Source of the DNA: a virus
IMG/VR virus record: IMGVR_UViG_3300029349_000001
Span: 1 to 64,000 of that record
Strand: one strand, 5' to 3'
Length of the DNA stretch: 64,000 bases
Each line of letters starts with the position of its first letter. Within the stretch, counting starts at the first letter, position 1. Below, piece by piece: positions 19,449 to 37,811 of the stretch. A model generated the notes under the pieces. The model ran no database searches and was not told the origin of the DNA. It saw only the letters and a program-made list of their open reading frames with translations. A program made the position numbers and the translations under genes.

Positions 19449-19516
19449 GTAGTTAATTAGACGATTTTAGAGGCAGACATTAGGATTAGTGGTTTTACAA
19501 CCGGAGAAAGGACATT

Positions 19517-19669
19517 ATGGAAGAATTATTTAATATAATAGGAAAGCTGTACGTAGATATCTACAATACCCAAAAAATTATAGAACTACTACAAACTCAG
19601 CTTAAGGATAAGGACAGGGAAATATCTGAACTAAAGCAAAGGAAATCTTCTAAGGATGATAACGGATGA
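19517..19669 (+). CDS. Small coiled-coil protein (50 aa) missing from the ORF track
   Basis: Manual translation MEELFNIIGKLYVDIYNTQKIIELLQTQLKDKDREISELKQRKSSKDDNG; GGAGAAAGGA RBS; overlaps the next gene start. Confidence 0.7.
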   Translation: MEELFNIIGKLYVDIYNTQKIIELLQTQLKDKDREISELKQRKSSKDDNG

Positions 19670-20705
19670 TGTACGTATTGTTTTATATCGTATCTTGTCT
19701 GGTTCATTGTTTTTTCATGTAGATGGTCAAACATACGAATTTAGAAAGATTACGAATAAAACCAAATATGAGGCAGAAATTTTATATCGTCAAATTATTA
19801 ATGACGAGAAGTATAACGAATGGATAAGATCAGATAGTGCTGAGCAGATGATGATAAATTTAGGACTATGGACAAAAGACACTAATGATATGCTGAAGAA
19901 ACTAGAGAAGAGCATCGAAAATACTAAAGTAGAATTATTTAGTAATTTTTTATATCCAGAGAAAATTAAGAAAATAAGGAAAAGTCTGGATTCTTACAGA
20001 GCACAGCTAGACAAAGCCCTATCCGCTAAACAAAATTTCATAGTGTCTCATACTCTAGAAGGACATGCCGAAAACATCAAAAATGAATATATGGTGTGTC
20101 AGAGCTTGTACATGGACGACGATAGAGTATTTGATAGTCTAGATAGCATTAATGAAAGTGGTTCATATATGTATTTTAATGCTATAGTATCAGAGATCAA
20201 TAAGCATTCTATTTCTATGTCTCAATATAGAAAAATAGCTCGTAGCGATGAATGGAGATCTTATTGGAGTTGTAACAAAATCAATACATTTGAAGGATGT
20301 GTAGCTAATTGGACCGACGAACAACGTAGTTTAATTAATATCTCTAAAATGTATGATAGCATATATGAACACCCAGAATGTCCCAATGATAAGATTATCG
20401 AAGACGATGACGCATTAGACGGCTGGACAATAGTACAAAAAAGAAAGAACGACAAAAACAAGAATCAACAATCGATAGATGCTATTAATCCTAATTTAAA
20501 GAATGCTCAAGAAGTATTTCTCATGGCACAGAATAAAGAAGAAGTAGATAATATTATAGGACTTAATACTCCCGACGCTTTACATAGAATGAAACAAAAG
20601 AGAGCCGCGATAGATGCTGTTGGTACAATAGATGATATTAATCTGCCCGATGTTCAAGCAGAACTTAGGAACCAGACCAATCAACAAATTAAAAATAGGA
20701 AATAA
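19656..20705 (+). CDS. Putative tail assembly chaperone (paralog of 21011)
   Basis: 349 aa, between tube and TMP genes; shares GLW...H(T/S)xEGxAxN...Y(M/L)V with 21011. Confidence 0.5.
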   Translation: MITDDVRIVLYRILSGSLFFHVDGQTYEFRKITNKTKYEAEILYRQIINDEKYNEWIRSDSAEQMMINLGLWTKDTNDMLKKLEKSIENTKVELFSNFLYPEKIKKIRKSLDSYRAQLDKALSAKQNFIVSHTLEGHAENIKNEYMVCQSLYMDDDRVFDSLDSINESGSYMYFNAIVSEINKHSISMSQYRKIARSDEWRSYWSCNKINTFEGCVANWTDEQRSLINISKMYDSIYEHPECPNDKIIEDDDALDGWTIVQKRKNDKNKNQQSIDAINPNLKNAQEVFLMAQNKEEVDNIIGLNTPDALHRMKQKRAAIDAVGTIDDINLPDVQAELRNQTNQQIKNRK

Positions 20706-20708
20706 CTT

Positions 20709-21014
20709 ATGAGCATGAATAATGATGATATTCTATATAATATCGAAAAACGACTCAAAACAACAATGATAGGATCCATAGCAAAATTTGAAGAATTTTT
20801 TGGACATCTATGGGAGGAAGAAAATCCTAATATAGACCATTATGATAAATTATGGGAACAAGCTAGAACATCCATATTAAATAATGGAAATAATCAAATT
20901 AGACTTGCGCTTAATGAATTGTCTGATTATTTATATAATAGACGAAATTCCACGACCGTAAAACAAAAGTACCACTATAAGTTTAACTTTAGGAACAGAG
21001 GAGATAACGAATGA
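20709..21014 (+). CDS. Hypothetical protein
   Basis: 101 aa, tightly packed, ATGA overlap with the next gene. Confidence 0.7.
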   Translation: MSMNNDDILYNIEKRLKTTMIGSIAKFEEFFGHLWEEENPNIDHYDKLWEQARTSILNNGNNQIRLALNELSDYLYNRRNSTTVKQKYHYKFNFRNRGDNE

Positions 21015-21886
21015 AGACTAAGACTTTTACCGTAAAGCTAGAGGATAAGGACAGAGAGATTCTCGTAAAGACACCATCTTTAAATGATCAGCGAGAAGCT
21101 CAAAAGGTTTATAATCAAGCCTTTACAGACGCTATAAAGAGCAAGAGTGTGGTACGAGCCAAGCTCGATGATCTACTCAAAGATCAAGGACTATGGAGCG
21201 ACGAAAAACAGGCCCAATTTAACCTGCTCCAAAAAGAAATTCTAGACGGAGAAAAAAGACTAGCAAAGGGAGGATTTAGCTTAAATGAGGCTAAAGACCT
21301 AGCTATAGCCATAAAGGCCAAGAGAGATGAGATTAGAGATCTAATCAGTGTTAGAACATCTCTAGATAATCATAGTGCAGAAGGACAGGCCGATAATGCT
21401 AGATTTAATTACTTAGTATCGGTATGTGTGGTGTATAATGATTCAAAGGAACCTGTTTTTAAGGACATGGAAGATTATTTGAACAGATCGACAGAAGAAG
21501 TTTCACTATTGGGCGCTCAAAATTTGGCTAATATGCTTTATGGATTGGATAATGACTATGAAAGTAATTTACCAGAAAATAAGTTTCTTAAAAAATATAA
21601 GTTTGTTGACAATCAATTAAGACTTGTAGACAAGAAGGGTAGGCTGATAGACGCCGACGGTAGATTAATTGATGCCGATAACAGATTTATAGACGAAGAG
21701 GGTAACTTTGTAGATAAGTTTGGAAATAGGGTAGACAAAAATGGAGATTACGTTGTTGAGCCAGAGCCATTTTTGGATGAAAACGGAAAACCAATTATTT
21801 TAGATGAACCAAAAAATGAAACACCAACCACTCCATCACCAGAACCAGAGTCTACGGCTGTTTCAGAAGAAAAGTCGTCTCAGTAA
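21011..21886 (+). CDS. Putative tail assembly chaperone with 7-aa (I/V)DxxG repeats
   Basis: 291 aa, directly upstream of the TMP gene; GAGGAG RBS. Confidence 0.55.
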   Translation: MKTKTFTVKLEDKDREILVKTPSLNDQREAQKVYNQAFTDAIKSKSVVRAKLDDLLKDQGLWSDEKQAQFNLLQKEILDGEKRLAKGGFSLNEAKDLAIAIKAKRDEIRDLISVRTSLDNHSAEGQADNARFNYLVSVCVVYNDSKEPVFKDMEDYLNRSTEEVSLLGAQNLANMLYGLDNDYESNLPENKFLKKYKFVDNQLRLVDKKGRLIDADGRLIDADNRFIDEEGNFVDKFGNRVDKNGDYVVEPEPFLDENGKPIILDEPKNETPTTPSPEPESTAVSEEKSSQ

Positions 21887-21916
21887 TTACACATTAAACA
21901 TTTTATATGTTACTTT

Positions 21917-21957
21917 AATCCCTAGTCTATGTAACTATAGATTAGGGATTATTTTTT
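21917..21957 (+). terminator. Rho-independent terminator-like hairpin just upstream of the TMP gene
   Basis: aatccctagtctat-gtaact-atagattagggatt (14-bp stem with one G-U pair) followed by ATTTTTT. Confidence 0.75.
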
Positions 21958-21972
21958 AATAATAGGATTTAA

Positions 21973-24900
21973 ATGTCTACAGCTTTTAATTTAACAGCAC
22001 AGCTGAATCTTAGAGGACCAACCAATGTCAGGAATATTGTTTCTGGCATTAGAAGGCAATTAGGTAATATTACAGCAGACGTAAATCTAAGAATAGACCC
22101 TGCTGCTACTAGAAATCTAACCCAACTTAATACAGCTTTAACAAACTTTAACGCAACCCTTAGAACCACACAAACAAATGCCGCTAATACAGCGAATGCT
22201 CTAAGAGGTTTGGCCAATGCTATTAATGGAATAAATGCTAACAATCTACCAAGAAACATGACCAACATCGCCACTGCATCAAATAGAGCAGCACAGGCTA
22301 CTGGTCGAGTAACACAACAGGTAGGAGAAGCTCGTAATCAGATGGAAGAATTCGGTAGACAGTCTGCTCTAGCTGTTCGTCGTTTTGCTGCTTTTAGTAT
22401 TTCTGCCGGTATCATTGTTGGTTTTACAAATGCTATTAATAAGGGTGTTAGAGCTTTCGTTGAGTTTGATAAAGAATTAGTTAAATTACAGCAAGTTACT
22501 GGTGAATCTGCAAAGGGATTATCTGGTCTTCAGAAAACTATTGCGAATTTAGCTTCTGGTTTAGGTGTTAGTTCTTCCGAATTAATTAATGTTTCATCAA
22601 CATTAGCACAGGCTGGTTTGAGTGCTAGAGATACTGAAAAAGCTCTTAAGGCATTAGCACTAAGTTCTTTGGCTCCGTCATTCGATGATATGAATAAGAC
22701 GGTAGAAGGTAGTATCGCATTGATGAGGCAGTTCGGCATTAGTGCCGGTCAACTAGATCAAGCTCTTGGTTCTGTTAATGCTGTTGCTGCGAAGTTTGCC
22801 GTCGAAGCTAGTGATATTATTGCTGCTATTCAGCGTACTGGTGGTGTGTTCGCTGCTGCTAGTAAGGGAGTTAGTGAAGGCACCGATGCACTCAATGAGT
22901 TTATTGCTGTTTTTACCAGTATCCGAGCCACTACTCGTGAAAGCGCAGAAACTATCGCAACCGGTTTGCGTACTATTTTTACTCGTGTACAAAGAGGAGA
23001 AACCATAGAGGCTCTTAAGCAATATGGTGTTAATCTTACTGATTTAGAAGGCAAATTCGTTGGAGCTTATAAGGCAGTGGAACTTTTATCTAGAGGTCTT
23101 GGTCAGATTGATCCAAGAGATCTAAGATTCTCTCAAATTGTAGAAGAACTTGGTGGATTCCGACAGATCGGTAAAGTTATTCCACTTATTCAACAATTTG
23201 CTACAGCACAACAAGCATTAGCAGTTGCTCAACGTGGTCAAGGTTCTCTAGCAGAAGATGCTGCTATCGCCCAATTATCTCTTGCTAATCAGATAGCTAA
23301 AGTTAGAGAAGAATTTTTAACTCTTATTCGTGATATTGGTGGAACAGATACCTTTCAGACTATTGCTAAAAGCGCTTTAGGTTTAGCTAGTGCGTTAATC
23401 AAAGTAGCAGATAGTGTTAAGGGGGTATTACCAGTACTTGGTGTGGTTATGGCCATACGAGGTACTGCTGCCTTATCCAGTTATGCTAGAGGTTTTGCTG
23501 GTGGTATGGGTAATATGAGAGGTGGACGCAGAGCAGCGAGTGGGGGTTATATTAAATATGCTGCCGGTGGACAGGTGCCTGTGGCTTTAATGCCCGGTGA
23601 GGCTGTCATATATCCAGAAGCAGCAAAGCGTATTGGCACACCAACTCTACGTCGCATGAATTATGCTGATAAGAAGATGGCTAAGGGTGGTAAAGTAGGC
23701 ATGGTTCCAGGCACCGGCAATAGTGATAGTTTTTATACATCTTTGCCAGCTGGAAGCTTTGTAATTAGGAAGAAAGCTACCCAAGCTATGGGCGCTGGTA
23801 GAATTAATGATATAGCGTCTGGTAGACAAAAATTTGCAGTAGGAGGCGAAGCAAAATGGAGGGACGTAGAAGCCCAGATGAGAGGCGGTAGAGGACGACC
23901 AAGCAAAAATACTACTACAGTAGGAGAAGCTGTTGATAAGGTATCGTCTAAAGAATACAACAATAGAAAAGGCAGATTTAAGTCTGATTTTCCTTTTATC
24001 ATTAGAGGATTAAATAGAGCAGGAACTAAAGCTCAAATTAATGAAGAAGCAATATTAGATAAATATCTTAAAAAAGGAGTCAATGATCTTTCTAAAGCTA
24101 TTGTTAATCAAACACAAGGAAATATAACTGTTCCTTCTAGTGATATTGATATTCAAAATAAAGAAAGTATTTATGGAGGACTATTTGAAACCGCTTTATT
24201 AAAGATTAGTAAAAGATCAGCAGATAAAAAAGACAATAGTCAAAACTTTGACTTTCCAAGAGGTATAGGACCGATCTTGTCTAATATCTTTAGTGGTATG
24301 CCTCCTAGTATATCTACCGACGTTAAAAGAACAGCAGCAGCCAATGCTGGTATGAAATCTAATATAGCTAATAAATTAGCGAATGAAATGGCTTCCAATA
24401 GACTACCCAAACAGCCCATGCCGGTCGGAGTAGTATCTTTAAGCCCAATGGACTCTGCTATAGTTTCTAAAATTTCAGGAGCAGAAGTAAACAAGTTATT
24501 AAATACTAAGCTAAAACAAAAAAGTAAAAGTCAAAGAAGAGCTATTGGTGGACTTATTCAAAAGTTCGCCAAGGGAGGACTAGCAACTAGAAATGTCGGA
24601 TATATTGATAGTGATGAAATAACACAGCTATTAAAAGATAGTGTTAAAGGTCCGCTCATTAAGGCCGAAATGGATAGGCTAGGAATCAAAGGAGTAACAG
24701 AGTATAAAGAACACCTCGCCAACTTAGCAGCGACCAGAAGAAACGACGGAAGTCTCAAGAGATTAACGAATATCTTTGGTGTTGCTGGATCTGGCAAGAG
24801 CACAATGCTCCAAGGTGGATCAAGAGCCGCCGAAGCAGACAACGCCAGACTACGCAAAACCAATAGATATCCAGTATTAACAGAGCAAGATATATTGCGT

Positions 24901-27900
24901 TCAGATCAAATTGTTGACTCTACATCAGTAGCCGGTCCTACTCAAAGAACAGCATTAAGTTCTGCTGATAGAGTAATAGCTTTATCATCTAGAACTAAAG
25001 AATCGCAAGAAGCACTAAAGAAGAATAGAAAATCTAGAGATACTAGTGGTAGAAATTTATTTGGTAGAAGACCAGGATCTACCAAAAGCGCCCCATTAGA
25101 TAGTGGTATGGGAGAGGCATATATCGCCGCTAGTGGTGTTTCTGGTGTTGATCCTAAAAAAGTTGTTACAATGAAGTTGGGTGAAAAGTTTAGAAAGACC
25201 AGAACATCACAACCAACAGTAAGAACTCCAGATAAAACTGGTTTATTTTATGGTAATTTTGGACCCACAACAAAAGGCCACACTAGTGTCGTAAAAGAAG
25301 CAGAAAAAATGGGTATTCCTGCTAAAGACTTTGTTGCTTTAGTAGGTGGTGATACTCCTATAGATTATACAGATAAAGATCCTCATAGTAGACGTACTGC
25401 TATCTTCCCACAGAAAAGTTCTGATCAACTACCGTCACGACTAGGTATGGCTAGAGCAGCTTTTGGCGCTATGGGAGCCAACGTATCCGCCATGCCCAAA
25501 GGAAGCGGCCCAGGAAGTATTCCGTCTGCATTTAAAGTAGGAGAAGATAGTTATATTGTACCTAGAGGCAAGGGAGATATAGCATTTGTAGGTGACGAGA
25601 AAGAGTCTGGGTCTTTATCTAAATATGAAAAACTAGGATATGGCGTTAAATCTCTTCCAAGATCTGGCGGTATCAGTGGCACTAAAGCTAGAGAAGCCAT
25701 AGCAGCTAATGATATTCCAGCCTTGAAAAAGTTGCTAAGTCCAGCCGGATTCGAGTATGTGCAAAAACATATGGCTACTCTTCAACAGCGTCCTAAGTTG
25801 CTAGACGCTATCTTATCCAAGATTGAGAGAAATAGCGCATCTGGCAAAGGTACAGCAGGCAGACTATCACAGATTAAATCTCAGTTAGCAGACTTACCAT
25901 CTAGAGTTAGTAAAACTACACCAGCAGATGTTGTAGCAAAAATAGAGTCTTTAAGAAAAGAAAGAGATTCATTATCTAGTAAAGTTGGCAGATTACCATC
26001 TAAATTAATGTCTAGATTAGAACAAAGACAAAAATTTGCTGTTGGTGATGAAGTCAAGAAAAGAAAAATCAAAAAGATTAACCCAAATGACTACTCACAA
26101 AGTATTCAAAATCTACAGAATGATCCTAACAGTATTCTAAGACAGCAGGCTGTTGGTGTTGCTATTCTTCAGGGACCAAAGAAAGGTGTTGCAGATTCTG
26201 CTGTTAGTAAAAAGTCTATTATACAATCTGTTGGCAAACAATACAGCGATTTATTAGGTTCTGCTGTGTCCGGTGGTAGTATTGGTATTCAGAGAGAAGC
26301 CTTAAAGCCACAAGTATACAAAGACTTCAATGAAGGTATCGAAAATGGCCTAGTACAAGCCGTTAATACTGCTGTTGGTACCATTTCTAGTAAATATCCA
26401 GAACTACCCACTCCGGCAATCAACGGAGAAGAAGAAAGAAGAAAATATTTAAAGGGTGTTAATGATGCTGCTAAAGGCAATATGTTCGAAGAAATGCTAA
26501 CAAGCATGAGGAACAAAGGACAGTATGATGCCAACCCAGATCCACAAAGATCTTTTGACTTTGCACCAAATAAAGGCTCCGCTTTTGGATTGTCTAATAT
26601 ATTCGATAAAATTTCTTCTCTTTTATATGTAGACGCTAAGGCTAGCAATCCTTCTGATGCTGCTATTTCTAAGAAAATTGCGAACCAAACTCTTAGAGAT
26701 TTAGGGGTTATTAAGGGTAGAAAATCTAAGGATGTTCCAGATCAAGGTTCTATGGAGAGAGATATTAGTAAGAGGTTGCAGTCTGTTACTGAAGATTCTC
26801 CGTTATCATTACAAGATTTACAAAAAGAATTACCCAATGCTAAACTAAAAATGACCAACTCTATTGCCAAGAGTATGGGTCTTGTGGTTGATAGGGCCGG
26901 AGGTAAAACCAATTTTATTAGACCTAGAGTCGGACAACCTAGAAGACTAGCTAGAGGTGGTTTCGCTAATAGATTAGCGGTATCTGATCACGATATGACC
27001 GGAGCTGTGACAGCAGGAAAAGAAACTCCCAGTTTGTCACAATTTAAAGATCCCAAACTAGCAGTTCCAGATATAATGTCTGGTAGTCCAACTAAATTAA
27101 TAGGACTTCTTAAGCAATATGGAGCTACCCAGATACTTACTGCTAGAAGCGGCGGCCCTAAAGGAGAGATGAGAGATGCTCTTAAGAGATTTTATAACAA
27201 AAATGGTTTATTAATTCCAGACTCTAGAATAACTACATTAGGAGATCAGATCAATGATATTCCTACTCCAGAAAGAAAAGCACGAGCTTTATTTGATTTA
27301 GTTAAAAAATATGGTAAAGTAGATTTTTTTGATGATGATCCTAGAAATATAGAAGCTGCTAAAGACGTTAAGGGAGTAAATGCTAGAAGAGTTAAGGTTA
27401 GAAAAGCTTCTGGCGGATCAATTCCTTCCTCAATAGACAACTCATTGTCTCTTAATAGATCTGCTAAAGATAAAAGATTGGATTCTAAAAAATTAGCAGC
27501 TTTTCTTGGCGCTAAAACCACAACTTCTACTAAGCAACAAGAACTAGCAGAACGATTAAAAGACCTTGGTGTATCAGCTCCCTCTAAACCAAATTATGAA
27601 GAATTACTAAAAGGCCTAAAAGGATATGCAAAAGGAGGAGAAGTACCAATAGTTGCTCAAGAGGGAGAATATGTTATTAACAGGAAATCTGCAAAGGCTA
27701 TAGGATATGGTAATTTACATGCTTTAAATAAATATCATACTGGTGGAATAGTACAAAAATTTGGCGCCGGAGGACCGCTGGACTCCGCTATGGCCTCAAT
27801 GTCTGCCAAAGATGCTGCTAAGCTAAAGGTTTCTATTAGTAAAAATGCTAAAGCCTTTGATCAGTTAGAGAAAGGCGTTAAGGGTTGGCCAATAGACGCG

Positions 27901-30900
27901 GTACAAGCAGCTATGAAAAAACTAGCAAGAACACTAGAACGAGGAGACAAAACCTTTAAGTTTGATAATAAGAACTATAATAAAAACAATCCCGCAACAA
28001 GACAAAACAAAAAAGAAAGAGTCGGACTAAAGGGCAAGCCAGCCGGTACAGGAACATCAAAAGCTTCTACCAATGAAGCCAATTTTGAAGCAAATAAAGT
28101 AAAAATGATTGCTGATTTACAAAAATATGAAAAAGCACAATACGACAAAGAGAGAAAAAAGGGAAAAACAGCACAAGAAGCCAGAGAGTCGTCTAAAGCA
28201 GCAGCAATAGCTCGCACAAAACAAATAGCACAACCAATGTCTAAACAACAAGAAAGAGCGGTTACTGCACAAGCTATTCGTAAAGCTAGAGCATCTGGAG
28301 CAAATAATCAGGATGCAAAAAGATCAGGGCAAAATGCTTTAAATAATGCTAGAGCAAAACAACAAGCACAATCTCAAGGAGCTGCGATATTCAATACCGC
28401 CTCGGTGACCGGAGATAAAACGTCTTTAAGAAACGCCCTCGGTGGATACAACCCAGCTTCTGCCGCTAGAGCCGGAGGAGGAACCAGAACAGGCGGCGGA
28501 GGAGGAACAGGAGCAGGTGGTGGAGGATCATCTAGACGAAGAAGATCGTCTGGAGGAGGTCAGCAACCAGATAGGGATAATAATGGTCGTATAATGGGTA
28601 TGGGAAGATTAACTCAAGCTGGTTTTGGTATTAGCATGATGGGCGGTCTTGGTAGTCAGTTCTTTAATCCAGAATCTAGCGCATCAAATGCTGCGAATGC
28701 TGCTTTTACAGAAAGTTTTACTAGTACTATTGGTATGGGAGCGACCGTTGCTGGTAGTATAGGAGACTTGCTTAGTGGTAGTGGAGAAGATAACAACAGA
28801 AGAAGACCATCCAGAAATTCTCGCAACAGAGGAACATCAACTAGAACGAGACCACAAGCTTCTCCGTCGAGTCGAGGAAACAGTAGAAGCAGCGGCCCAA
28901 GGGTATCGTCTGGCAGCTCCGGTAGTGGCGACGGTAGTGGCTCAGGCATGGGAGTACTGGGAGGACTTGGTGCCGTACTGGGAGTTGTTGCAGTAGGAGG
29001 ACTTGCTTTAGCGGAGGGGTTGAAGGCCGCTCACAATGCTGCTAGAGAATTCACTATCAACCTAGCTAATAATAAACTACAAGAGTCATTAGAAAAAGCG
29101 AATAAGTCTGTAGAAAAATTTAGTAATAATCTCAAAGACCGAACAGCAGAGACCCAAGCGAAACGAGATACTCTAGATGTCGTTAAGGCTACCGATGCTT
29201 TAGACGCAGCTTCTTCAAAACCAGAAGCAGGATTATTTAATCTTGGAGATGCTATGTCCGGAGATAAGGGCAGTTTTGAGCGTAGTCAAATTCTTAATAA
29301 GAGGGGCATATCCGCATATCTTAGCACAACTAATATGTTTGGGGGAGAGAACGCAGCAAAAAATCAAGCTGCTCAATTTTCGACACTAATTCCACAGCTA
29401 GCATCTGAAAAATCCAAAAGATACACAGGAGCAGCAGAATCCTCCACTTCGTTCCTAGAATCAAAATTCCGTTCTGGCTCTAGTATAGACGAGATGAAGA
29501 AAGATAAAGACCAGTTTAGTAATCTCACAAAAAGCCTAGCATTAGCGGATGCTGCGATTCAACAACAGATTATGACTGTTGAAAATTCTACCACACTCAA
29601 TGATGCACAAAAGGCTACCCTTAAAAATAGTATCATAGCTACCAATGCTGAAACCAAAGCTAGAGAAATACAGACTAAAGTATTGAGAGAAATGGCTCTT
29701 GAAAGTCTTAATAAGACTACAATAATTTTACAAAATAGTCTCGAAAGAATGTTCCAGAACATGGAGCAAGCTATTGCTTCTAATGCATATGCATTGGATA
29801 AACTTACTGCTAGCGCAGACCTAGCATCCGCTTCCTTGTCCGGTTCTGCTAAAGTAGGATCGGTAAAACTAGATAGTATTAATACCCTACAGAACCCAAG
29901 GGCAAATAGCGGACAACCTATGAGATCCGCAGCTGATCAAGCAGCATCTATGTTTGGAAATGAAGCCCCGGCTATTAAGTCTATATTACAAGTTGCTTCT
30001 TCTATGGAAGATGCTGTAATGTCTACTATTAACAGTACTCTAAAAAATAATCCTGGTGCTACCAATGAACTTGTTGGTGGGTCTATAGATAAATCTATAT
30101 TTAAAGTATTAACCGATCTTAAATTACCTCCTGACTTGAGTTCCAAGCTATCTAGTGAAGTTGGTTTAGCTATTAAAGATATGAGAAAGTCTGGTGAAGA
30201 CAAGGTAGATTTTAGTCAGCTAGTTGAAAAAATACCACAACTCGGCAGAGTACTAGATAGTGCAAAAAGAGCGCAAGAAGTCGCTATTAAATCACTAGAA
30301 AATTGGCAAAATGCTTTAAATGAATATGCTAATACGACTAATCAATTAATTGATATACAAATAGATAGTAATCAAAAACTTAGAAGAGCTACAGATATAC
30401 TAATCGGTGGTCAAAATGAATTAGCTAATGCTTTTGGTAAATCGGCTTCATTACAAAGCGCTGTAAATAACTCCAAAGCCAAAACAGCTTCCCAAACAGG
30501 AGGACCAACCGACCCATCAGACATCCGTAGAAATATACAAAGTCTTGAATTAACAAGACAATCAGAGCAGGCTAGGTCAGATACTGCATCCCAAAAGGGT
30601 TTTGGTGGTAAAGATGAATTCATGATGATGCAAGAAAGGCTAAAAAATACTAGTGTTGCATTAAGAGAAAATTATGATGCTCTTAAGAACATGGCGGACA
30701 ACACAGATGTTGCCAGCGCCGCCCTAAATAAAATTTCTGAAATTAGACAACAAAGACAGGCGGGAGTCGGTTTTGCTGAAAAGCTAGTATCCAGTACTCC
30801 CAAAGAATTAGCAAATCTTAATATGTCAATGGCCAGACTGCAAAACAACATGGCTGGTGGAATGAATATGTCCAATGCTAGCCAAAGAGCTGGCGACCTA

Positions 30901-33900
30901 CAGCTGTTCAACGAACTGGCTCCTTTGCTGGGAGATAAGCAATCAGAGATGAAAGCTAATGTTTTAGAAAACATGCTCAAAGAATCTGGAGTTGGAGTGA
31001 GTCCAATGATGCAGGAGGTTCTGACATCTCTAAGGAATCCGGAGGCCGATCCGGCCATGCAAGAAGCTATTGCTACTTATAGAGAAGCTATCGGTCTTCA
31101 AGCAGAGGCCAATAAACAATTAGTTTTTCTTAATACTCAAATGGCAGAGAATAGTGCGGATATAGCTGCTAATAAATTGGCTCAATCTATGCGTGGTGTT
31201 ATACTAAAATTTGAAAGCCAGCAATTATTAGATATTAATAATAACATCAAAAATTTAATTGCAGTAGTAGAGGCCAAAGGTGGCTTGGCGCCGGGCGCTG
31301 CTCCGGCCGCAGGAAAAGCTCGTGGAGGAATGATATATGCCGCGGCTGGACAGTTGGTTGACTTTCAACCAAAAGGAACAGATACCGTTCCTGCTATGTT
31401 AACACCCGGTGAATTTGTGGTTAATAGAAAATCTACACAAAAACATTTACCATTACTTAAATCTATTAATAGCAACTCATATTCTAATGGTGGTAAAGTA
31501 GGATACTATGCTTATGGAGGATTGGTATTCGGAGATCCTTGGCAGAGAGAAGATAAAGCAGATGCTCTTAATAGGTCGGCCTCTGTTGAAAACGAAACAC
31601 CAGATAGACATCCTGATCTACTAAAAAATATGAGTAAAAGTAAGGGAGATTTGTCCAAATATTTTGAAGATATCTTTTCTGTTCAAGGGGCGTTTTATGC
31701 TGCCAATAAAAACTCTGGCCCTGTATCTGATTGGTTTTTTGACAAATTTACCGGCTCATTTTCTGGGCTACAACCACAAGCTGTTTTGGGTTCCTCATAT
31801 TCTAAGTTTGTTGCTTCTGTCGGTCCGGGAGTCGTCGATTATACTAATATTACCAGATCAGGAAATGTTAGAACTCCTAAAATTGGTAATATCCCAACCC
31901 TGGAATTCTTTTCAGATATAGTTTCTCAAACAGCGGAACAGAAAAAAATCAAAGAATCACAAATAAAAGAATATTATGGTGTGCTAGACAATATACTTAA
32001 ATTTATGCCAAAAACAGAGATATCTGGCGATAGTATCAAAGTTGATGGGAAAAATATAATTATAGATAGTCTTCTTGATCCAAAATCTAGACCAGACTTA
32101 TCTCCCCAGGTTGATGTTACTTCAACAGCCGATGGCTACAAACAATTGATAACCGTATCTAATCTTTCTAAAAAAACGGGTAATTTGCATGGTTTATATA
32201 CTAAAAATAATATAAATACTATTCATGCAAATAGTGATGATATGGGTGGAATCGGGAATATATATGGTATTAATGCACAGAATAGGGATCTAAGCGGATA
32301 TCCATATACTAGGATAGTAGCCGGATTGGATAGTATGAGATATGCTGGCCTAGGAGGCTTCTCTTCTATGGATATAGCTGGAGACCTTGCTTCTCAGACA
32401 ACTAATTATGACAATTCCATGTTCGATGGTGATATGGCACAAATTAAACAGAGACTATCTAATGCTCAGATAGTGAAAGCTAATCTAGAAAGAACAAAAG
32501 AACTATTATCTGGCGGTAACGTTAAACTTCAAGAGAGTGAAACATCAGAAGCTAATAGAAACTATGTAAATAAACTACAACAATTACTTAGCGGTTCGGT
32601 ATTTAAAGCGACTTTTTCCGAAGCCGAAATAAAAGGAAAAGATTCTGTCAAGCCACCCATAACTCTGTATAACCTAGATGGTAATGATTGGGATTCTAGA
32701 GTAGATGTTCTTGACAAGGATGCTTCTGTTACAAAAGGAACGTACGCTGGTAAAAAGGGCTCTAGCTGGATCCCTGTTGGATCAAGAACCATGGGCGTGG
32801 GAACAGTACCTGATCAATTTAGTATTCAAAAATGGTTTCCTTGGGTTGGGTCTGGATTTAATTCTACTATTTTTGATGATCTTAAAAACAAATATAATGC
32901 ACAGAATCCAAACAATGTAAAGGTAACTCCAGGATCATATGCTGATGATATAATGGCATTTAATTATAAAAACATAGAAGGACCTATGTTCGATGCTAAT
33001 AAAAAGATGACCAAAAACAAATACAAGTTTACAACAGTTTCGCTGGATCAAAATACTGTAAACGAGAAACTGAATCCGTTCCGAGACTTAGTTGATCAAA
33101 ACCTTCTTCCACAAGATCCAGAAAAATCCGAGATTTACGCAAACACTCCGGGTGATCTAATAGGTATGATCAAAAATTTGGTCAATAATACTATTCTAAG
33201 AACTCAACAAAACACTTTATCATTTGGTAGTTCTATTAAGAGATTATCAGCAGCAGACAAAGCTATAGCAGACCTAGATTTTGCTCAACAAACAAAAGAT
33301 AATGCTTATTTACTTAATTCTATAGCACCAGGATTTCAATACGAAGCAAAATTATATGGAGACGAACTAAGAAAGAGAATAGCACAACAAAAACAAGATC
33401 AACAAGCAGCAGCTGGAGAAAAAGGGATAGCCAATAAAGCAAATCTTCAAGACCTACCAGAAAATCCGCTATTGTTAGCCGAACAAGCGAGAGGCATAGT
33501 TAGTAAAGTCTTATCTCCTGTTTCTGGAATTTTATCTGCATACAATATTAAACTCTCTCCTATTAGAGTAGCATCTCAAATTGCTCCATACGGTAATTAT
33601 TTATTACAGGCTCAACAGTTTTTTGGTGATGCTGTAACTCAAAAATTTAAAAACAACAAGAAGGGAATAGACCAAAGACTATGGAATGTCTGGGGAGCGC
33701 TCGGGGCCTCTGGTAAAGTATTTGAAAAACTAGGAGCGGGAGATAAGCAGGGGCTACAAACCCTATTAGGTTCTGCTGCTAGTACTCTAGATAGTACAGA
33801 TTTAGGAGATATGGTTGTACGATATGGTCAATTGTTAGCGGCTCAAGGAGCAACATTCGCTGGTACAGCTGGGCTATCTACTCCGAAAGACGTACTAAAG

Positions 33901-35016
33901 AAAGAAATTGGAGACAACGACAAACAAACAATAGAAGGTATATTTAAGAAAGCTCAAACAGAAGAGGCTACAGTAGCCAGAGATGGTAGATTAACCGTAA
34001 ATAAAACCGAAGGAAGGAATCTGCCGACCAACTTATTAGATCTCGGAAAGAAAATAGTTAACCCATACTCCACATTCCAACCTGGAGATCGTAGTCCTTT
34101 ATTTGATATTCTTCTCAAAGGATTGGAAACACACGACAACAAGGGGGTTAAACGCAATGTTAATGAAAAATTAGTCACCAATCTCAAAGCTCTAAAACAG
34201 TTCTATGCTTCATTTTTAGATCCGATAGTAAGCGGAGGGGTTGCTCCAAATGATGATATGATACGGCAGATATCTGATCAGTATCCAACAATGAACGCTA
34301 TTTTACAAGTATTAACTAATGGCGAATATGGAGCGATGCCGGATGCTAAAAAAATGCAAGAGCTTGCAGCTGCTAAAAAAGCCAGAATGGAAGCAGAGAA
34401 AAAGGCTAGTGGCGGCATAGTATATGCGAGCACTGGAACCCTAGTAGACTATAAACCCAGAGGGACTGATACTGTTCCAGCGATGTTAACACCAGGAGAA
34501 TTTGTAGTTAATAGACAATCAACATCCAAACACTTACCATTATTACGTGCTATTAATAGTAATAGATATCAAACAGGTGGCGTTGTATCCCCCAACTATT
34601 ATGAAGCCGGTGCGCTTGCATCAGGAGCAGCAAAGACTGTCGGTGCTATAGCAGGCATGGTCGGTATCAAATTAGATACCAAAAAACTAGAGACAGATAT
34701 TACATCAGCATTCGATAGCGGTTCTCAACAACTAAAGAGTCAACTTCAGGGTATTTTTGGATTAAAATCAGAAGACCGCAATGCATTAATATCATTTGGT
34801 ACTAGTATGGTAAGACTAGTATCTCAGCTAGCTCAAGTTAGTATACCTCCAGAAATTAAGTTCAGTATGCAGCCAGTACAAGTGAATATTACAGGCGCTC
34901 AAGGATTGACAGAGGCTGCTCAAAGTCTAATTGATGGAGCAATCAAGAAAGCTTTTGATGATTTTTTAAGTATTAATGATTTGCAGGGTACCTATAAAGC
35001 GCCAGATGAAAACTAG
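21973..35016 (+). CDS. Tail tape measure protein (4347 aa) with embedded enzyme-like domains
   Basis: TP901-type TMP core at ~22455-23430 (FDKELVKLQQVTG...LAQAGL...TRESAETIATGLRTIFTR); Gly/hydrophobic helices ~28620-29020; GTDTVPAMLTPGEFVVN motifs; position after tube and chaperone genes. Confidence 0.9.
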   Translation: MSTAFNLTAQLNLRGPTNVRNIVSGIRRQLGNITADVNLRIDPAATRNLTQLNTALTNFNATLRTTQTNAANTANALRGLANAINGINANNLPRNMTNIATASNRAAQATGRVTQQVGEARNQMEEFGRQSALAVRRFAAFSISAGIIVGFTNAINKGVRAFVEFDKELVKLQQVTGESAKGLSGLQKTIANLASGLGVSSSELINVSSTLAQAGLSARDTEKALKALALSSLAPSFDDMNKTVEGSIALMRQFGISAGQLDQALGSVNAVAAKFAVEASDIIAAIQRTGGVFAAASKGVSEGTDALNEFIAVFTSIRATTRESAETIATGLRTIFTRVQRGETIEALKQYGVNLTDLEGKFVGAYKAVELLSRGLGQIDPRDLRFSQIVEELGGFRQIGKVIPLIQQFATAQQALAVAQRGQGSLAEDAAIAQLSLANQIAKVREEFLTLIRDIGGTDTFQTIAKSALGLASALIKVADSVKGVLPVLGVVMAIRGTAALSSYARGFAGGMGNMRGGRRAASGGYIKYAAGGQVPVALMPGEAVIYPEAAKRIGTPTLRRMNYADKKMAKGGKVGMVPGTGNSDSFYTSLPAGSFVIRKKATQAMGAGRINDIASGRQKFAVGGEAKWRDVEAQMRGGRGRPSKNTTTVGEAVDKVSSKEYNNRKGRFKSDFPFIIRGLNRAGTKAQINEEAILDKYLKKGVNDLSKAIVNQTQGNITVPSSDIDIQNKESIYGGLFETALLKISKRSADKKDNSQNFDFPRGIGPILSNIFSGMPPSISTDVKRTAAANAGMKSNIANKLANEMASNRLPKQPMPVGVVSLSPMDSAIVSKISGAEVNKLLNTKLKQKSKSQRRAIGGLIQKFAKGGLATRNVGYIDSDEITQLLKDSVKGPLIKAEMDRLGIKGVTEYKEHLANLAATRRNDGSLKRLTNIFGVAGSGKSTMLQGGSRAAEADNARLRKTNRYPVLTEQDILRSDQIVDSTSVAGPTQRTALSSADRVIALSSRTKESQEALKKNRKSRDTSGRNLFGRRPGSTKSAPLDSGMGEAYIAASGVSGVDPKKVVTMKLGEKFRKTRTSQPTVRTPDKTGLFYGNFGPTTKGHTSVVKEAEKMGIPAKDFVALVGGDTPIDYTDKDPHSRRTAIFPQKSSDQLPSRLGMARAAFGAMGANVSAMPKGSGPGSIPSAFKVGEDSYIVPRGKGDIAFVGDEKESGSLSKYEKLGYGVKSLPRSGGISGTKAREAIAANDIPALKKLLSPAGFEYVQKHMATLQQRPKLLDAILSKIERNSASGKGTAGRLSQIKSQLADLPSRVSKTTPADVVAKIESLRKERDSLSSKVGRLPSKLMSRLEQRQKFAVGDEVKKRKIKKINPNDYSQSIQNLQNDPNSILRQQAVGVAILQGPKKGVADSAVSKKSIIQSVGKQYSDLLGSAVSGGSIGIQREALKPQVYKDFNEGIENGLVQAVNTAVGTISSKYPELPTPAINGEEERRKYLKGVNDAAKGNMFEEMLTSMRNKGQYDANPDPQRSFDFAPNKGSAFGLSNIFDKISSLLYVDAKASNPSDAAISKKIANQTLRDLGVIKGRKSKDVPDQGSMERDISKRLQSVTEDSPLSLQDLQKELPNAKLKMTNSIAKSMGLVVDRAGGKTNFIRPRVGQPRRLARGGFANRLAVSDHDMTGAVTAGKETPSLSQFKDPKLAVPDIMSGSPTKLIGLLKQYGATQILTARSGGPKGEMRDALKRFYNKNGLLIPDSRITTLGDQINDIPTPERKARALFDLVKKYGKVDFFDDDPRNIEAAKDVKGVNARRVKVRKASGGSIPSSIDNSLSLNRSAKDKRLDSKKLAAFLGAKTTTSTKQQELAERLKDLGVSAPSKPNYEELLKGLKGYAKGGEVPIVAQEGEYVINRKSAKAIGYGNLHALNKYHTGGIVQKFGAGGPLDSAMASMSAKDAAKLKVSISKNAKAFDQLEKGVKGWPIDAVQAAMKKLARTLERGDKTFKFDNKNYNKNNPATRQNKKERVGLKGKPAGTGTSKASTNEANFEANKVKMIADLQKYEKAQYDKERKKGKTAQEARESSKAAAIARTKQIAQPMSKQQERAVTAQAIRKARASGANNQDAKRSGQNALNNARAKQQAQSQGAAIFNTASVTGDKTSLRNALGGYNPASAARAGGGTRTGGGGGTGAGGGGSSRRRRSSGGGQQPDRDNNGRIMGMGRLTQAGFGISMMGGLGSQFFNPESSASNAANAAFTESFTSTIGMGATVAGSIGDLLSGSGEDNNRRRPSRNSRNRGTSTRTRPQASPSSRGNSRSSGPRVSSGSSGSGDGSGSGMGVLGGLGAVLGVVAVGGLALAEGLKAAHNAAREFTINLANNKLQESLEKANKSVEKFSNNLKDRTAETQAKRDTLDVVKATDALDAASSKPEAGLFNLGDAMSGDKGSFERSQILNKRGISAYLSTTNMFGGENAAKNQAAQFSTLIPQLASEKSKRYTGAAESSTSFLESKFRSGSSIDEMKKDKDQFSNLTKSLALADAAIQQQIMTVENSTTLNDAQKATLKNSIIATNAETKAREIQTKVLREMALESLNKTTIILQNSLERMFQNMEQAIASNAYALDKLTASADLASASLSGSAKVGSVKLDSINTLQNPRANSGQPMRSAADQAASMFGNEAPAIKSILQVASSMEDAVMSTINSTLKNNPGATNELVGGSIDKSIFKVLTDLKLPPDLSSKLSSEVGLAIKDMRKSGEDKVDFSQLVEKIPQLGRVLDSAKRAQEVAIKSLENWQNALNEYANTTNQLIDIQIDSNQKLRRATDILIGGQNELANAFGKSASLQSAVNNSKAKTASQTGGPTDPSDIRRNIQSLELTRQSEQARSDTASQKGFGGKDEFMMMQERLKNTSVALRENYDALKNMADNTDVASAALNKISEIRQQRQAGVGFAEKLVSSTPKELANLNMSMARLQNNMAGGMNMSNASQRAGDLQLFNELAPLLGDKQSEMKANVLENMLKESGVGVSPMMQEVLTSLRNPEADPAMQEAIATYREAIGLQAEANKQLVFLNTQMAENSADIAANKLAQSMRGVILKFESQQLLDINNNIKNLIAVVEAKGGLAPGAAPAAGKARGGMIYAAAGQLVDFQPKGTDTVPAMLTPGEFVVNRKSTQKHLPLLKSINSNSYSNGGKVGYYAYGGLVFGDPWQREDKADALNRSASVENETPDRHPDLLKNMSKSKGDLSKYFEDIFSVQGAFYAANKNSGPVSDWFFDKFTGSFSGLQPQAVLGSSYSKFVASVGPGVVDYTNITRSGNVRTPKIGNIPTLEFFSDIVSQTAEQKKIKESQIKEYYGVLDNILKFMPKTEISGDSIKVDGKNIIIDSLLDPKSRPDLSPQVDVTSTADGYKQLITVSNLSKKTGNLHGLYTKNNINTIHANSDDMGGIGNIYGINAQNRDLSGYPYTRIVAGLDSMRYAGLGGFSSMDIAGDLASQTTNYDNSMFDGDMAQIKQRLSNAQIVKANLERTKELLSGGNVKLQESETSEANRNYVNKLQQLLSGSVFKATFSEAEIKGKDSVKPPITLYNLDGNDWDSRVDVLDKDASVTKGTYAGKKGSSWIPVGSRTMGVGTVPDQFSIQKWFPWVGSGFNSTIFDDLKNKYNAQNPNNVKVTPGSYADDIMAFNYKNIEGPMFDANKKMTKNKYKFTTVSLDQNTVNEKLNPFRDLVDQNLLPQDPEKSEIYANTPGDLIGMIKNLVNNTILRTQQNTLSFGSSIKRLSAADKAIADLDFAQQTKDNAYLLNSIAPGFQYEAKLYGDELRKRIAQQKQDQQAAAGEKGIANKANLQDLPENPLLLAEQARGIVSKVLSPVSGILSAYNIKLSPIRVASQIAPYGNYLLQAQQFFGDAVTQKFKNNKKGIDQRLWNVWGALGASGKVFEKLGAGDKQGLQTLLGSAASTLDSTDLGDMVVRYGQLLAAQGATFAGTAGLSTPKDVLKKEIGDNDKQTIEGIFKKAQTEEATVARDGRLTVNKTEGRNLPTNLLDLGKKIVNPYSTFQPGDRSPLFDILLKGLETHDNKGVKRNVNEKLVTNLKALKQFYASFLDPIVSGGVAPNDDMIRQISDQYPTMNAILQVLTNGEYGAMPDAKKMQELAAAKKARMEAEKKASGGIVYASTGTLVDYKPRGTDTVPAMLTPGEFVVNRQSTSKHLPLLRAINSNRYQTGGVVSPNYYEAGALASGAAKTVGAIAGMVGIKLDTKKLETDITSAFDSGSQQLKSQLQGIFGLKSEDRNALISFGTSMVRLVSQLAQVSIPPEIKFSMQPVQVNITGAQGLTEAAQSLIDGAIKKAFDDFLSINDLQGTYKAPDEN
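31378..34560 (+). repeat. Duplicated TMP module GTDTVPAMLTPGEFVVNRxSTxKHLPLLxxINS (copies at ~31378-31472 and ~34462-34560)
   Basis: Near-identical peptide copies flanking ~960 aa of unrelated sequence. Confidence 0.9.
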
Positions 35017-35032
35017 TCGTCTTACTGTAACA

Positions 35033-35050
35033 GGTGTATTTAATAATATA
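35033..35050 (+). promoter_or_regulatory. Candidate late promoter (GGTGTA)
   Basis: 35 bp before ATG 35068. Confidence 0.55.
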
Positions 35051-35067
35051 ATCTAAAAGGAAGAAAA

Positions 35068-36501
35068 ATGATCAAATCCCCCATAAGAGTCGTTGAAAAT
35101 ATAGGATCTTATTGCCATGAGACTAATAATCGATTAGTTTTGGGCGAGATTCTAGATGGATATGCTGGACTATCTATTAATGACCATAATACATATATAC
35201 CATATATATGCAAGTCTTTTGATCTTAAAAACTGGGAGATAGGTATTGGTCTAGTGTCTGTTGTGGACTCCAAAGTTACTGTGGAGCGTGTTAGGGTAAT
35301 CAAAAAATCTTCAGAAAGTTATCAATTTGTTGGTAATAATAATCTATTTTATGTGTTTGCTAATGAATATAACTTTAATACTGGACTAAATAATTGTGTA
35401 GCATTAGAAGATCAAACAACTCTAGTTAATATTAAATGTACTTATTTAAAAACCAATGATTCTAAAGACACGTATGAACTACCCAGCAGCACAAATAATC
35501 AAGGATTAGCTATAGACTTTAAGAACACATCAGACTCAACTCTATATCTGCATAATTCAGATGAAAATGAGACATATGCTTGTGGACCCGGAGAATATCT
35601 TAAAGTTATAAGTGATGGAAATAGTTGGATTAAATTATACAGTGTGGTTGATTCTTTGGGTGTTGTGTCTTTATCAGCAGAACAACCGAACTATTTTAGT
35701 ACACAAAATCTAACAGCTTCTGGAATATACGGAGCCATACAATATAATAATAACGGCTCTATAGATGGTTCTAATCTAGTAATTAGCAGCGGATTATTAT
35801 TGCTAGGCAGTAGCTCAACGAACCCCTCGTCTGCTCAAAATATCATTCCATTATCTCTCTCTAATAAAGATACAATTTTTAATAACAACAATACTTCTGG
35901 CAATTTTATTGTTAAGGGTCTTGGTGATAAGAATTTAATTTTTACAAAAGATGGCAGACTAGGACTCAATATTCCCAGCGGTTCATTACCTCAAACAGCA
36001 TTGCACGTATTAAGTTATGCTTGTCAAGAAGGTATTAGGTTGGAAAATAGAAATTCCTGCTATCCTGCAAATCTGACCCTATATCATAAGCCTTCTACTT
36101 TGCCATCCAACGGCAGTATAGTATCAACCATTAATCTATCATCTAAAAACTCCGCCAATGCACAAGTTAATTACTCACAACTAAGATCCAAAATCATTAA
36201 TTCTGATTCTGTATCTAGTAGTGGCGAATTTGCTGTAGCAATACAGAATAACGGATCGTTAATAGAATCATTAAGAATTAATCCAACTGGATTTATAGCA
36301 TCTGTTAATACCAATTCTATTGTAGTAAATAATAATGGTATTCAATTAAACGGATCTTTAAGAACTAATCAGATTGCTACTAGTGGTAGCTTTATGATGA
36401 CTGATGGTAGTGGAAATTTAGTTTTGACAAGCCTTAATAATAGTCCTATAATAAGCTTGTTAGATGGTGATGTTGTCACATTTACTGGAGTATGTTCATG
36501 A
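35068..36501 (+). CDS. Tail fibre/appendage-like protein
   Basis: 477 aa; N-terminal RV.E...WEIGIG fibre-attachment-like segment, G.IQYNNNG and GRLGLN..PQTALHV motifs. Confidence 0.6.
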   Translation: MIKSPIRVVENIGSYCHETNNRLVLGEILDGYAGLSINDHNTYIPYICKSFDLKNWEIGIGLVSVVDSKVTVERVRVIKKSSESYQFVGNNNLFYVFANEYNFNTGLNNCVALEDQTTLVNIKCTYLKTNDSKDTYELPSSTNNQGLAIDFKNTSDSTLYLHNSDENETYACGPGEYLKVISDGNSWIKLYSVVDSLGVVSLSAEQPNYFSTQNLTASGIYGAIQYNNNGSIDGSNLVISSGLLLLGSSSTNPSSAQNIIPLSLSNKDTIFNNNNTSGNFIVKGLGDKNLIFTKDGRLGLNIPSGSLPQTALHVLSYACQEGIRLENRNSCYPANLTLYHKPSTLPSNGSIVSTINLSSKNSANAQVNYSQLRSKIINSDSVSSSGEFAVAIQNNGSLIESLRINPTGFIASVNTNSIVVNNNGIQLNGSLRTNQIATSGSFMMTDGSGNLVLTSLNNSPIISLLDGDVVTFTGVCS

Positions 36502-37022: not shown

Positions 37023-37024
37023 TC

Positions 37025-37768: not shown

Positions 37769-37772
37769 TTTT

Positions 37773-37787
37773 AGTGTATTACATAAG
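37773..37787 (+). promoter_or_regulatory. Candidate late promoter (AGTGTA)
   Basis: 39 bp before ATG 37812. Confidence 0.5.
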
Positions 37788-37811
37788 TAAAGCAGACACA
37801 AGGAAACTATA

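What the first reader, a model, noticed from the sequence alone, without database searches (positions are those of the whole stretch)
23530..34575. Recurrent basic-(F/Y/A)xxGG motif punctuates the TMP cargo boundaries
Seen: RAASGG/KYAAGG (~23530), KMAKGG, KFAVGG (~23830), RRAIGG/KFAKGG (~24535), KFAVGD (~26030), RLARGG (~26945), RKASGG (~27400), GYAKGG (~27622), KYHTGG/KFGAGG (~27730), KARGG (~31315), YSNGG/YYAYGG (~31480), KKASGG (~34400), RYQTGG (~34565). Ordinary TMPs have about one or two FAxGG...GExV motifs; here there are at least 15 and they bracket the enzyme modules. Inference: these are processing sites that release individual proteins, or pieces of a small scaffold domain whose loops accept cargo.
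Basis: partly seen in the sequence, partly recalled or inferred. Interest (0 to 1): 0.7.

Follow-up and report, generated by a model that had tools for sequence, protein, structure and literature searches.

The report
Junction motif in giant tape measure
A 4,347-residue phage tail "ruler" protein is divided into swappable segments, some of them enzyme-like, by a short glycine-glycine motif; phage T5 cuts its own ruler at a look-alike motif, so cutting here is plausible but untested.

Summary
All 17 listed motif copies lie in one ORF (window 21973-35016, 4,347 aa, tape measure protein) and are 6-20 times more frequent than in shuffles.

Twelve copies are the edges of five copies of a 60-80 aa unit: [KR][FY]AxGG, a loop, DTVPAMLTPGEFV[IV]N, a helix, then [FY]xxGG. 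A profile of the unit matches lambda gpH 732-791, beside the region where gpH is cut. Five solitary copies flank the four cargo modules, two of them enzyme-like.

In relatives, 10 of 23 homology breakpoints lie within 12 aa of a motif GG, against 2.2 expected. In a relative whose flanks are 94-96% identical, DNA similarity switches on exactly at the GG codons.

Cleavage is not shown. The closest precedent is T5 pb2, cut after R1127, directly before AEGG; R-A-x-G-G is kept across distant T5-like phages. The "scaffold with cargo in loops" reading is not supported.

The family is large: at least 1,324 clusters of 2,390-7,608 aa, with up to 12 units. I found no Pfam model or paper for the unit. 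This scan has reported the same architecture on other DNA several times (e.g. e1-5827916, e1-5761547, e1-5661818).

The parts
21973..35016 (+). Giant tape measure protein ORF, 4,347 aa (P0001)
   Evidence: PHROG tape measure families; at least 1,324 homologous clusters
22534..23148 (+). PhageMin_Tail (PF10145) core, aa 188-392
   Evidence: E 5.6e-22
23395..23478 (+). Hydrophobic segment aa 475-502, followed by a Gly-rich stretch; same order as lambda gpH 691-737
23530..23850 (+). Tandem junction units A (aa 520-576) and A' (aa 576-626), with motifs RRAASGG, KYAAGG, KMAKGG and KFAVGG
23860..24534 (+). Cargo module 1 (aa 630-854), a weak paralogue of module 3
24535..24579 (+). Solitary double motif RRAIGG-LIQ-KFAKGG (aa 855-869), the tail form of a unit
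24580..26019 (+). Cargo module 2 (aa 870-1349): P-loop kinase plus cytidylyltransferase-like
   Evidence: TIGR00125, E 0.015
26020..26043 (+). Degenerate solitary motif RQKFAVGD (aa 1350-1357)
26044..26925 (+). Cargo module 3 (aa 1358-1651); the 96%-identical stretch shared with L029 ends at nt 26924
26938..26961 (+). Solitary motif PRRLARGG (aa 1656-1663)
26962..27399 (+). Cargo module 4 (aa 1664-1809): HAD phosphatase-like; absent from the closest relative
27400..27417 (+). Solitary motif RKASGG (aa 1810-1815)
27613..27774 (+). Junction unit B (aa 1881-1934): GYAKGG, KYHTGG, KFGAGG
28420..29022 (+). Gly/Ser/Arg-rich low-complexity stretch and strongly hydrophobic segment (aa 2328-2346)
31306..31527 (+). 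Junction unit C (aa 3112-3185): KARGG, YSNGG, YYAYGG
34393..34587 (+). Junction unit D (aa 4141-4205): KKASGG, RYQTGG; 94% DNA identity to L029 starts at its GG codons (nt 34411)
34588..35013 (+). C-terminal 142 aa after the last unit; by position the counterpart of the C-terminal part of lambda gpHC (after its unit) and of T5 pb2C
   Evidence: median 150 aa after the last unit in 150 relatives; inference

Best explanation
The motif is the recurring edge of a conserved 60-80 aa junction unit of tape measure proteins. Phage lambda gpH has the same unit once, at aa 728-791. In this protein five full units and four solitary motif sites act as the joints of a cassette-built chain. The chain runs: N-terminal TMP core, unit, four cargo modules each fenced by an AxGG motif, unit, membrane/coiled-coil segment, unit, 965-aa segment, unit, C-terminal tail. 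Shown: the joints are where relatives gain, lose and replace segments, and the motif is kept by selection on the protein, not by copied DNA. Inferred: the joints are extended, exposed linkers. At least the last unit, and possibly all of them, is a proteolytic processing site of the T5 type, cut just before A-x-G-G. Cutting would separate a tip-bound C-terminal piece and could free the cargo enzymes once the protein is ejected into the host ahead of the DNA. My odds: joint role about 0.9; cutting at one or more joints about 0.4.
For: Unit definition and copies: (73 units; first GG invariant; L, G, E, V, L, N and the second GG at least 90% conserved). Homology to lambda gpH 732-791 (E 2e-6), Douge gp16 twice (E 2e-15) and JBD30 TMP. 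The unit occurs only in the TMP ORF of 25 loci. Architecture S0-U-S1-U-S2-U-S3-U-S4, with conserved S0 and units and variable S1-S3. Module 2 in three proteins and module 4 in three proteins start right after the motif in unrelated surroundings. Breakpoints: 10 of 23 within 12 aa of a motif GG vs 2.2 expected (no simulation in 20,000 reached 10), including all 7 in the cargo segment and its flanking units. In 164 proteins, 24% of breakpoints lie within 25 aa of a solitary motif vs 10% random. Solitary motifs number 255 vs 28 expected and concentrate in S1. In the relative L029, DNA similarity starts at the GG codons of units B and D. Synonymous codons differ among the 17 copies. For cutting: T5 is cut after R1127, followed by AEGG (PMC10038345), and R-A-x-G-G is invariant in the four divergent T5-like TMPs that could be read. 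Lambda gpH* of 78-79 kDa fits a cut at aa 710-733 (PMC12617516). The unit alone is not predicted to fold.
Against: No cleavage data exist for this phage or any multi-unit TMP. The T5 resemblance covers only about 10 residues (hhalign probability 1.5%, HMM score about 0). The basic residue before the motif is present in only about half of 677 units. No peptidase was recognised in the TMP or in the ORFs scanned, about half of the 64-kb window (745-21886, 35068-43559 and short ORFs at both ends). Thirteen of 23 breakpoints, all in S2 or S3, are not at motifs. Similarity starting at the GG is expected at the edge of any conserved block, so it does not by itself prove a special recombination mechanism.
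Confidence: 0.6

Rival explanations
1. Full polyprotein: every motif, solitary ones included, is cut, so each cargo module is released as a separate protein.
For: Motifs fence modules the size of whole stand-alone phage proteins: module 4 is 146 aa vs neighbours of 146-178 aa, and module 2 is 480 aa vs 428-508 aa. The HAD-like module's DHD catalytic motif starts 9 residues after the GG. T5 precedent.
Against: No protease was found. T5 and lambda each show a single cut near the C-terminus. One boundary motif is degenerate (KFAVGD). The residue before A-x-GG varies.
Confidence: 0.3
2. Uncut structural joint. The short strand-like motifs ([FY]AxGG followed by two hydrophobic residues) and the unit keep the three or six parallel chains in register, or contact the tube, the chaperone or the tip. 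They are conserved for assembly, and modules swap there only because these are the sole conserved patches.
For: The motif occurs three times per unit and has a strand-like pattern. The unit needs partners to fold. The first unit always starts near aa 523 and the last ends about 150 aa before the C-terminus. TMP C-terminal parts are trimeric in solved tails (PMC10721106, PMC10713586).
Against: This does not explain why solitary motifs concentrate at cargo boundaries or why T5 cuts at the look-alike motif.
Confidence: 0.35
3. A small scaffold domain whose loops accept cargo.
For: The loop between the first GG and the DTVPAML core varies from about 5 to 35 aa. The solitary site at aa 855-869 looks like the tail half of a unit.
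Against: No unit has a cargo-sized insert. Cargo lies between complete units or motifs. The monomer model has pLDDT 62 with one helix.
Confidence: 0.05
4. Recombination scar only: the motif is microhomology left by cassette exchange and has no role in the protein.
For: Mosaic boundaries sit at the motif.
Against: Codons differ at synonymous sites among the copies. The amino-acid pattern is kept from this phage to lambda and actinophage Douge and in 35,259 representative proteins.
Confidence: 0.05

Closest known systems
Phage lambda gpH (tape measure) and its maturation to gpH* plus gpHC
   Same: The order is the same: hydrophobic segment, Gly-rich stretch, then the unit (FATGG at 733, GEFVF core, helix, YATGG). 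The unit profile matches gpH 732-791 (E 2e-6, 26.6 bits). Lambda is cut in or next to this region (PMC12617516).
   Different: Lambda has one unit 62 aa from its C-terminus and no cargo; this protein has five units plus solitary motifs and is 5 times longer. NCBIfam TIGR01541 covers lambda's end but does not hit this protein. Lambda's exact cut site and protease are unknown.
Phage T5 pb2, cut after R1127 into pb2* and pb2C
   Same: The cut falls directly before A-E-G-G-M-M-Y, which resembles GK-ARGGMIY and KK-ASGGIVY here. It lies after the hydrophobic stretch and separates an enzymatic piece. R-A-x-G-G followed by GE-x-G-x-E is conserved in Demerecviridae.
   Different: No profile-level homology was found. 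T5 has one short site without the helix, and the T5 protease is unknown.
Mycobacteriophage tape measure proteins with embedded motifs (TM4 Rpf-like; Douge gp16)
   Same: These are TMPs that carry extra functional segments. Douge gp16 has two internal units at aa 960-1035 and 1409-1461.
   Different: The inserts are small cell-wall hydrolase motifs. I found no paper describing a cassette train or a junction rule.
Polyvalent proteins of phages and conjugative elements (Iyer et al. 2017, PMC5512222)
   Same: One giant virion-delivered chain carries several unrelated enzyme domains thought to act early in infection.
   Different: Those are head or internal proteins, usually with an in-built metallopeptidase for self-processing. 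That paper does not mention tape measure proteins, and no peptidase domain is seen here.

Membership tests
Tail tape measure protein (TP901 / PhageMin_Tail type) | PF10145 core domain | tested here: met
   aa 188-392, E 5.6e-22; PHROG TMP families
Tail tape measure protein (TP901 / PhageMin_Tail type) | Position in the tail module, between chaperone-like genes and tail tip genes | tested here: inconclusive
   Neighbours have no family hits. The gene order and the two overlapping small ORFs upstream (20709-21014, 21011-21886) fit. Tail-type hits appear at 9595-13524 and 37812-41147.
Lambda-type TMP C-terminal unit (gpH 728-791) | Significant profile match of the unit to gpH | tested here: met
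   E 2e-6, 26.6 bits
NCBIfam TIGR01541 tape_meas_lam_C | Score above the family cut-off | tested here: not met
   lambda 231 bits; no hit for P0001 or its units
T5-type TMP processing site | Basic residue followed by A-x-G-G and hydrophobic residues | tested here: met
   RR-AIGG, RK-ASGG, GK-ARGG and KK-ASGG here; this is motif-level resemblance only
T5-type TMP processing site | Homology of the surrounding region to pb2 | tested here: not met
   hhalign probability 1.5%, score about 0
T5-type TMP processing site | Actual cleavage in virions | not testable with these tools
   Needs mass spectrometry or N-terminal sequencing
Polyvalent protein (Iyer et al. 2017) | Several unrelated enzyme domains in one delivered chain | tested here: inconclusive
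   ESM-Atlas leads only; Pfam and NCBIfam hits below cut-off; fold of module 4 failed
Polyvalent protein (Iyer et al. 2017) | In-built processing peptidase (MPTase) | tested here: not met
   no peptidase family in the 4,347 aa

The most novel reading that the evidence does not exclude
The [basic][FY]AxGG edge of the lambda-type unit is a general tape-measure cleavage signal. T5 cuts at R|AEGG and lambda near F733|ATGG. Giant TMPs reuse the signal many times as a true polyprotein code, so that one tail-lumen chain is cut into a membrane channel piece, a tip plug and several free enzymes delivered ahead of the DNA.
Probability: 0.25. Interest if true: 0.85.

Novelty: new variant of a known kind. 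Interest (0 to 1): 0.62.

Why it matters
Where and how lambda gpH is cut has been open for more than 40 years (PMC12617516). Three observations together give a concrete site to test by mass spectrometry and point mutation: lambda's unit sits at the cut region, T5's mapped cut precedes the same A-x-G-G motif, and giant TMPs repeat the unit at every module border. The family also shows a natural rule for inserting protein cargo into a tail tape measure. At least 1,324 clusters share the N-terminal core, and the unit occurs in 35,259 representative proteins. That rule is of interest for understanding what phages deliver into cells before their DNA. Neither Pfam nor the NCBIfam models matched the unit in this protein.

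Tried and rejected
- Whole-protein phmmer against the PDB found nothing; only the unit profile worked.
- Self-BLAST of the whole protein returned only the self-hit; fragment queries were needed.
- AlphaFold2 of unit C with a 73-sequence alignment gave pLDDT 62, with only the helix confident. I ran no fold search on it.
- AlphaFold2 of module 4 with flanks on a 3-sequence alignment gave pLDDT 50 and was unusable. The claim that the motifs lie outside folded domains is therefore not shown structurally.
- Word-based homolog searches for modules 2 and 4 as stand-alone proteins found only fragments.
- I tested whether segments S2 and S3 arose by tandem duplication of segment plus unit. hhalign gave probability 0.03%, so this is rejected as undetectable.
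- I looked for a JAB/MPN (lambda gpK-like) or adenain/Ulp-type GG-specific protease next to the TMP. No peptidase family appeared in the ORFs scanned, about half of the window. The rest of the genome is not held.
- Pfam has no model for the unit. NCBIfam TIGR01541 does not reach it.
- Literature searches for polyvalent or polyprotein tape measure proteins found no description of this architecture.
- The JBD30 "cleavage at 1066" is only a PeptideCutter prediction by its authors, so I did not use it as evidence.
- The Aeromonas TS3 sequence was lost to a frame problem and is not counted.

Full report
**What is there.** The finding lies entirely inside one ORF, window 21973-35016 on the + strand, 4,347 aa. 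It is a tape measure protein (TMP). Pfam PhageMin_Tail matches aa 188-392 (E 5.6e-22), and four PHROG TMP families match the first 500-860 aa. The window is part of a large uncultured phage. No whole genome is held, and there is no close DNA match among 50,697 phage records.

**Check of the observation.** There are 17 copies at 13 places.
- Against 300 residue shuffles, [KR][FYAMLRK]xxGG occurs 13 times vs 1.95 expected (maximum 8).
- [KR]xAxGG occurs 10 times vs 0.5.
- [PE]GE[AFY]V[IV] occurs 4 times vs 0.
- Removing the Gly-rich stretch aa 2151-2350 changes nothing.

**What the motif belongs to.** Fragment self-comparison and an iterated HMM over this protein and 21 non-redundant relatives show a 60-80 aa unit. 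In order it has:
- [KR][FY]AxGG (this GG is invariant);
- a loop of about 5-35 aa;
- DTVPAMLTPGEFV[IV]N;
- a helix of the form KKAxxxIGxxxLxxxN;
- [FY]xxGG (at least 90% conserved);
- often xVxxxQ[KR]FAxGG (about 70%).

The motif is therefore a feature that recurs up to three times in one unit. In 677 and 773 instances from 150 further proteins the consensus is [G/R/K]-[F/Y/K/R/L]-[A/S/N]-x-G-G-[VILM]-[VI].

This protein has five full units, at aa 521-576, 576-626, 1881-1928, 3115-3177 and 4143-4205. The last two are 68% identical. Twelve of the 17 motif copies lie in these units. The other five are solitary, at aa 855-860, 864-869, 1352-1357, 1658-1663 and 1810-1815. They separate four cargo modules in the segment between units A' and B.

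**The cargo modules.**
- ESM-Atlas neighbours of module 4 (aa 1664-1809) are stand-alone phage HAD phosphatases of 146-178 aa (scores 0.93-0.96).
- Neighbours of module 2 (aa 870-1349) are phage proteins of 428-508 aa with a P-loop kinase plus a cytidylyltransferase domain (0.89-0.90).
- Pfam and NCBIfam give only sub-threshold support. The enzyme labels are leads, not findings.

A scan of viral contigs found 25 loci with homologous TMPs of 2,374 to more than 4,251 aa. Each carries 2-6 units, and only in the TMP ORF.

The architecture is constant: S0 (about 510-580 aa, 51-75% identical), unit, S1 (257-1,608 aa, largely unrelated between phages), unit, S2 (885-1,259 aa), unit, S3 (790-1,100 aa), unit, then a tail of about 130-170 aa.

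Cargo modules recur in unrelated surroundings and always begin at the motif.
- Module 2 recurs in L006 and L007. In all three proteins it begins directly after a double motif of the form [NT]xG-[LI]-[IVQ]-[QR]-[KQ]-[FTY]-[AY]-[AK]-G-[DG]; the first GG is kept only in the window and L006.
- Module 4 recurs in L028 and P0155, again in different surroundings and always preceded by xxxGG.

Close relatives give the sharpest picture.
- P0156 is 99% identical over aa 1-1652.
- P0156 then reads ...NFIRP-KAVKRAAGG-EVPILAQEGEY, going straight into unit B.
- The window reads ...NFIRP-RVGQPRRLARGG-[HAD module and linker ending GYAKGG]-EVPIVAQEGEY.
- The extra cassette therefore sits exactly after a GG and brings its own AxGG.
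- P0157 has a different module at the same spot.
- Other relatives break at aa 628, 848-862, 1360, 1659, 1933 and 4205.

Of 23 distinct breakpoints, 10 lie within 12 aa of a motif GG, against 2.2 expected (no simulation in 20,000 reached 10). These include all seven in the cargo segment and its flanking units, aa 628-1933.

At the DNA level the same relative (L029) shows three things.
- It is 96% identical to the window up to nt 26924.
- It is 94% identical to the window from nt 34410 onward.
- Similarity switches on exactly at the GG codons of unit B (nt 27634) and unit D (nt 34411).

Across 164 proteins, breakpoints in the cargo segment lie within 25 aa of a solitary motif in 24% of cases vs 10% at random. 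Solitary motifs are nine-fold enriched (255 vs 28) and concentrate in S1.

**Selection, not copying.** The 17 copies use different synonymous codons for Ala, Gly and Lys. The pattern is therefore maintained at the protein level.

**Wider distribution.**
- The unit profile matches 35,259 representative proteins at E up to 1e-3 among 1.84 billion, and 1,599 at E up to 1e-30.
- The top 150 are 2,289-7,872 aa with 4-12 units by that search's count (my re-scan of the same proteins found 4-11).
- In those 150, the first unit starts at a median of aa 523 and the last ends at a median of 150 aa from the C-terminus.
- At least 1,324 clusters of 2,390-7,608 aa share the N-terminal core.
- Pfam has no model for the unit.

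**Link to known biology.** The unit profile hits solved TMPs: Douge gp16 twice (E 2e-15), lambda gpH 732-791 (E 2e-6) and JBD30 gp46. None of the structure papers read for lambda, Douge and JBD30 reports that region as resolved (PMC10721106, PMC12617516, PMC13033339, PMC11445458).

In lambda the order is hydrophobic segment 691-712, Gly-rich stretch, then FATGG at 733. This window has the same order at aa 475-533. Lambda gpH is cut in that Gly-rich region into gpH* and gpHC; the site and protease are unknown (PMC12617516). A gpH* of 78-79 kDa fits a cut anywhere from aa 710 to 733.

T5 pb2 is cut after R1127, as mapped by mass spectrometry (PMC10038345). The T5 sequence there reads FVPR|AEGGMMYPG...GEHGTEVVTP. 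R-A-x-G-G and the GE-x-G-x-E element are conserved in Providencia, Klebsiella and two Vibrio T5-like phages down to about 37% identity.

This matches GK-ARGGMIY, KK-ASGGIVY, RK-ASGG and RR-AIGG in the window. The match is only at motif level: hhalign gives probability 1.5% and the HMM score is about 0.

**Mechanism.**
- Shown: the units and motifs are the conserved joints of a cassette-built TMP, and module exchange happens at them.
- Inferred: the joints are exposed, extended linkers. The unit alone gives pLDDT 62 with one helix.
- Inferred: at least the last joint is a T5/lambda-type processing site that leaves a C-terminal piece in the tail tip.
- Inferred: internal joints may be cut too, freeing the cargo.
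- I put the joint role at about 0.9 and cutting at one or more joints at about 0.4.

The main rival is an uncut structural joint that keeps the three or six chains in register or contacts tube, chaperone or tip. The scaffold-with-loops reading and a pure recombination scar are unlikely. No protease was found in the window.

**Novelty.** TMPs with embedded hydrolase motifs, and TMP cleavage in T5 and lambda, are known. I found no paper on a repeated junction unit fencing swappable cargo, on its presence at lambda's cut region, or on the T5 cut-site match. I class this as a new variant of a known kind.

This scan has reported the same architecture on other DNA several times. I reached the same reading before seeing those notes.

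Noticed in passing
window 18973-26924 and 34410-38000 vs L029: A relative from another sample is 94-96% identical in DNA on both sides. The central 7.5 kb of the TMP gene is replaced there (0-72% identity). This looks like a recent mosaic exchange inside one gene.
   Followed up: yes
window 15007-15936: A 309-aa ORF has a weak match to the T5 collar protein LtfC beta-sandwich (PF23926, E 0.004; phrog_3304) and a proprotein-convertase P domain (E 7.6e-7). This hints at a distant T5-like tail.
   Followed up: no
window 745-9540: A 2,931-aa virion structural protein (phrog_10356) carries Laminin_G_3 / concanavalin-like domains.
   Followed up: no
window 23860-24534 and 26044-26925: Cargo modules 1 and 3 are weak paralogues (aa 735-807 vs 1502-1578, E 0.006), both with an FDF...SNIF signature. 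Their function was not tested here.
   Followed up: no
window 28420-29022: A Gly/Ser/Arg-rich low-complexity run, including GGGGG and RRRR, is followed by the most hydrophobic segment of the protein (aa 2328-2346, KD 2.26). This may be a second membrane-insertion element.
   Followed up: partly
L035 (Nodularia phage vB_NpeS-2AV2, KU230356.1, TMP 124378-134592): A cultured cyanophage has a 3,404-aa TMP with two internal units (aa 989-1039, 1078-1109) and solitary motifs. It is a usable model for testing cleavage.
   Followed up: partly
window 20709-21014 and 21011-21886: Two overlapping ORFs (101 and 291 aa) sit directly upstream of the TMP, where tail assembly chaperones usually lie. They have no family hits.
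   Followed up: no
one search hit list: A few giant relatives carry other Pfam-recognised cargo: an ADP-ribosyltransferase exoenzyme domain (PF03496, P0179) and EF-hand domains (P0173, P0144).
   Followed up: no
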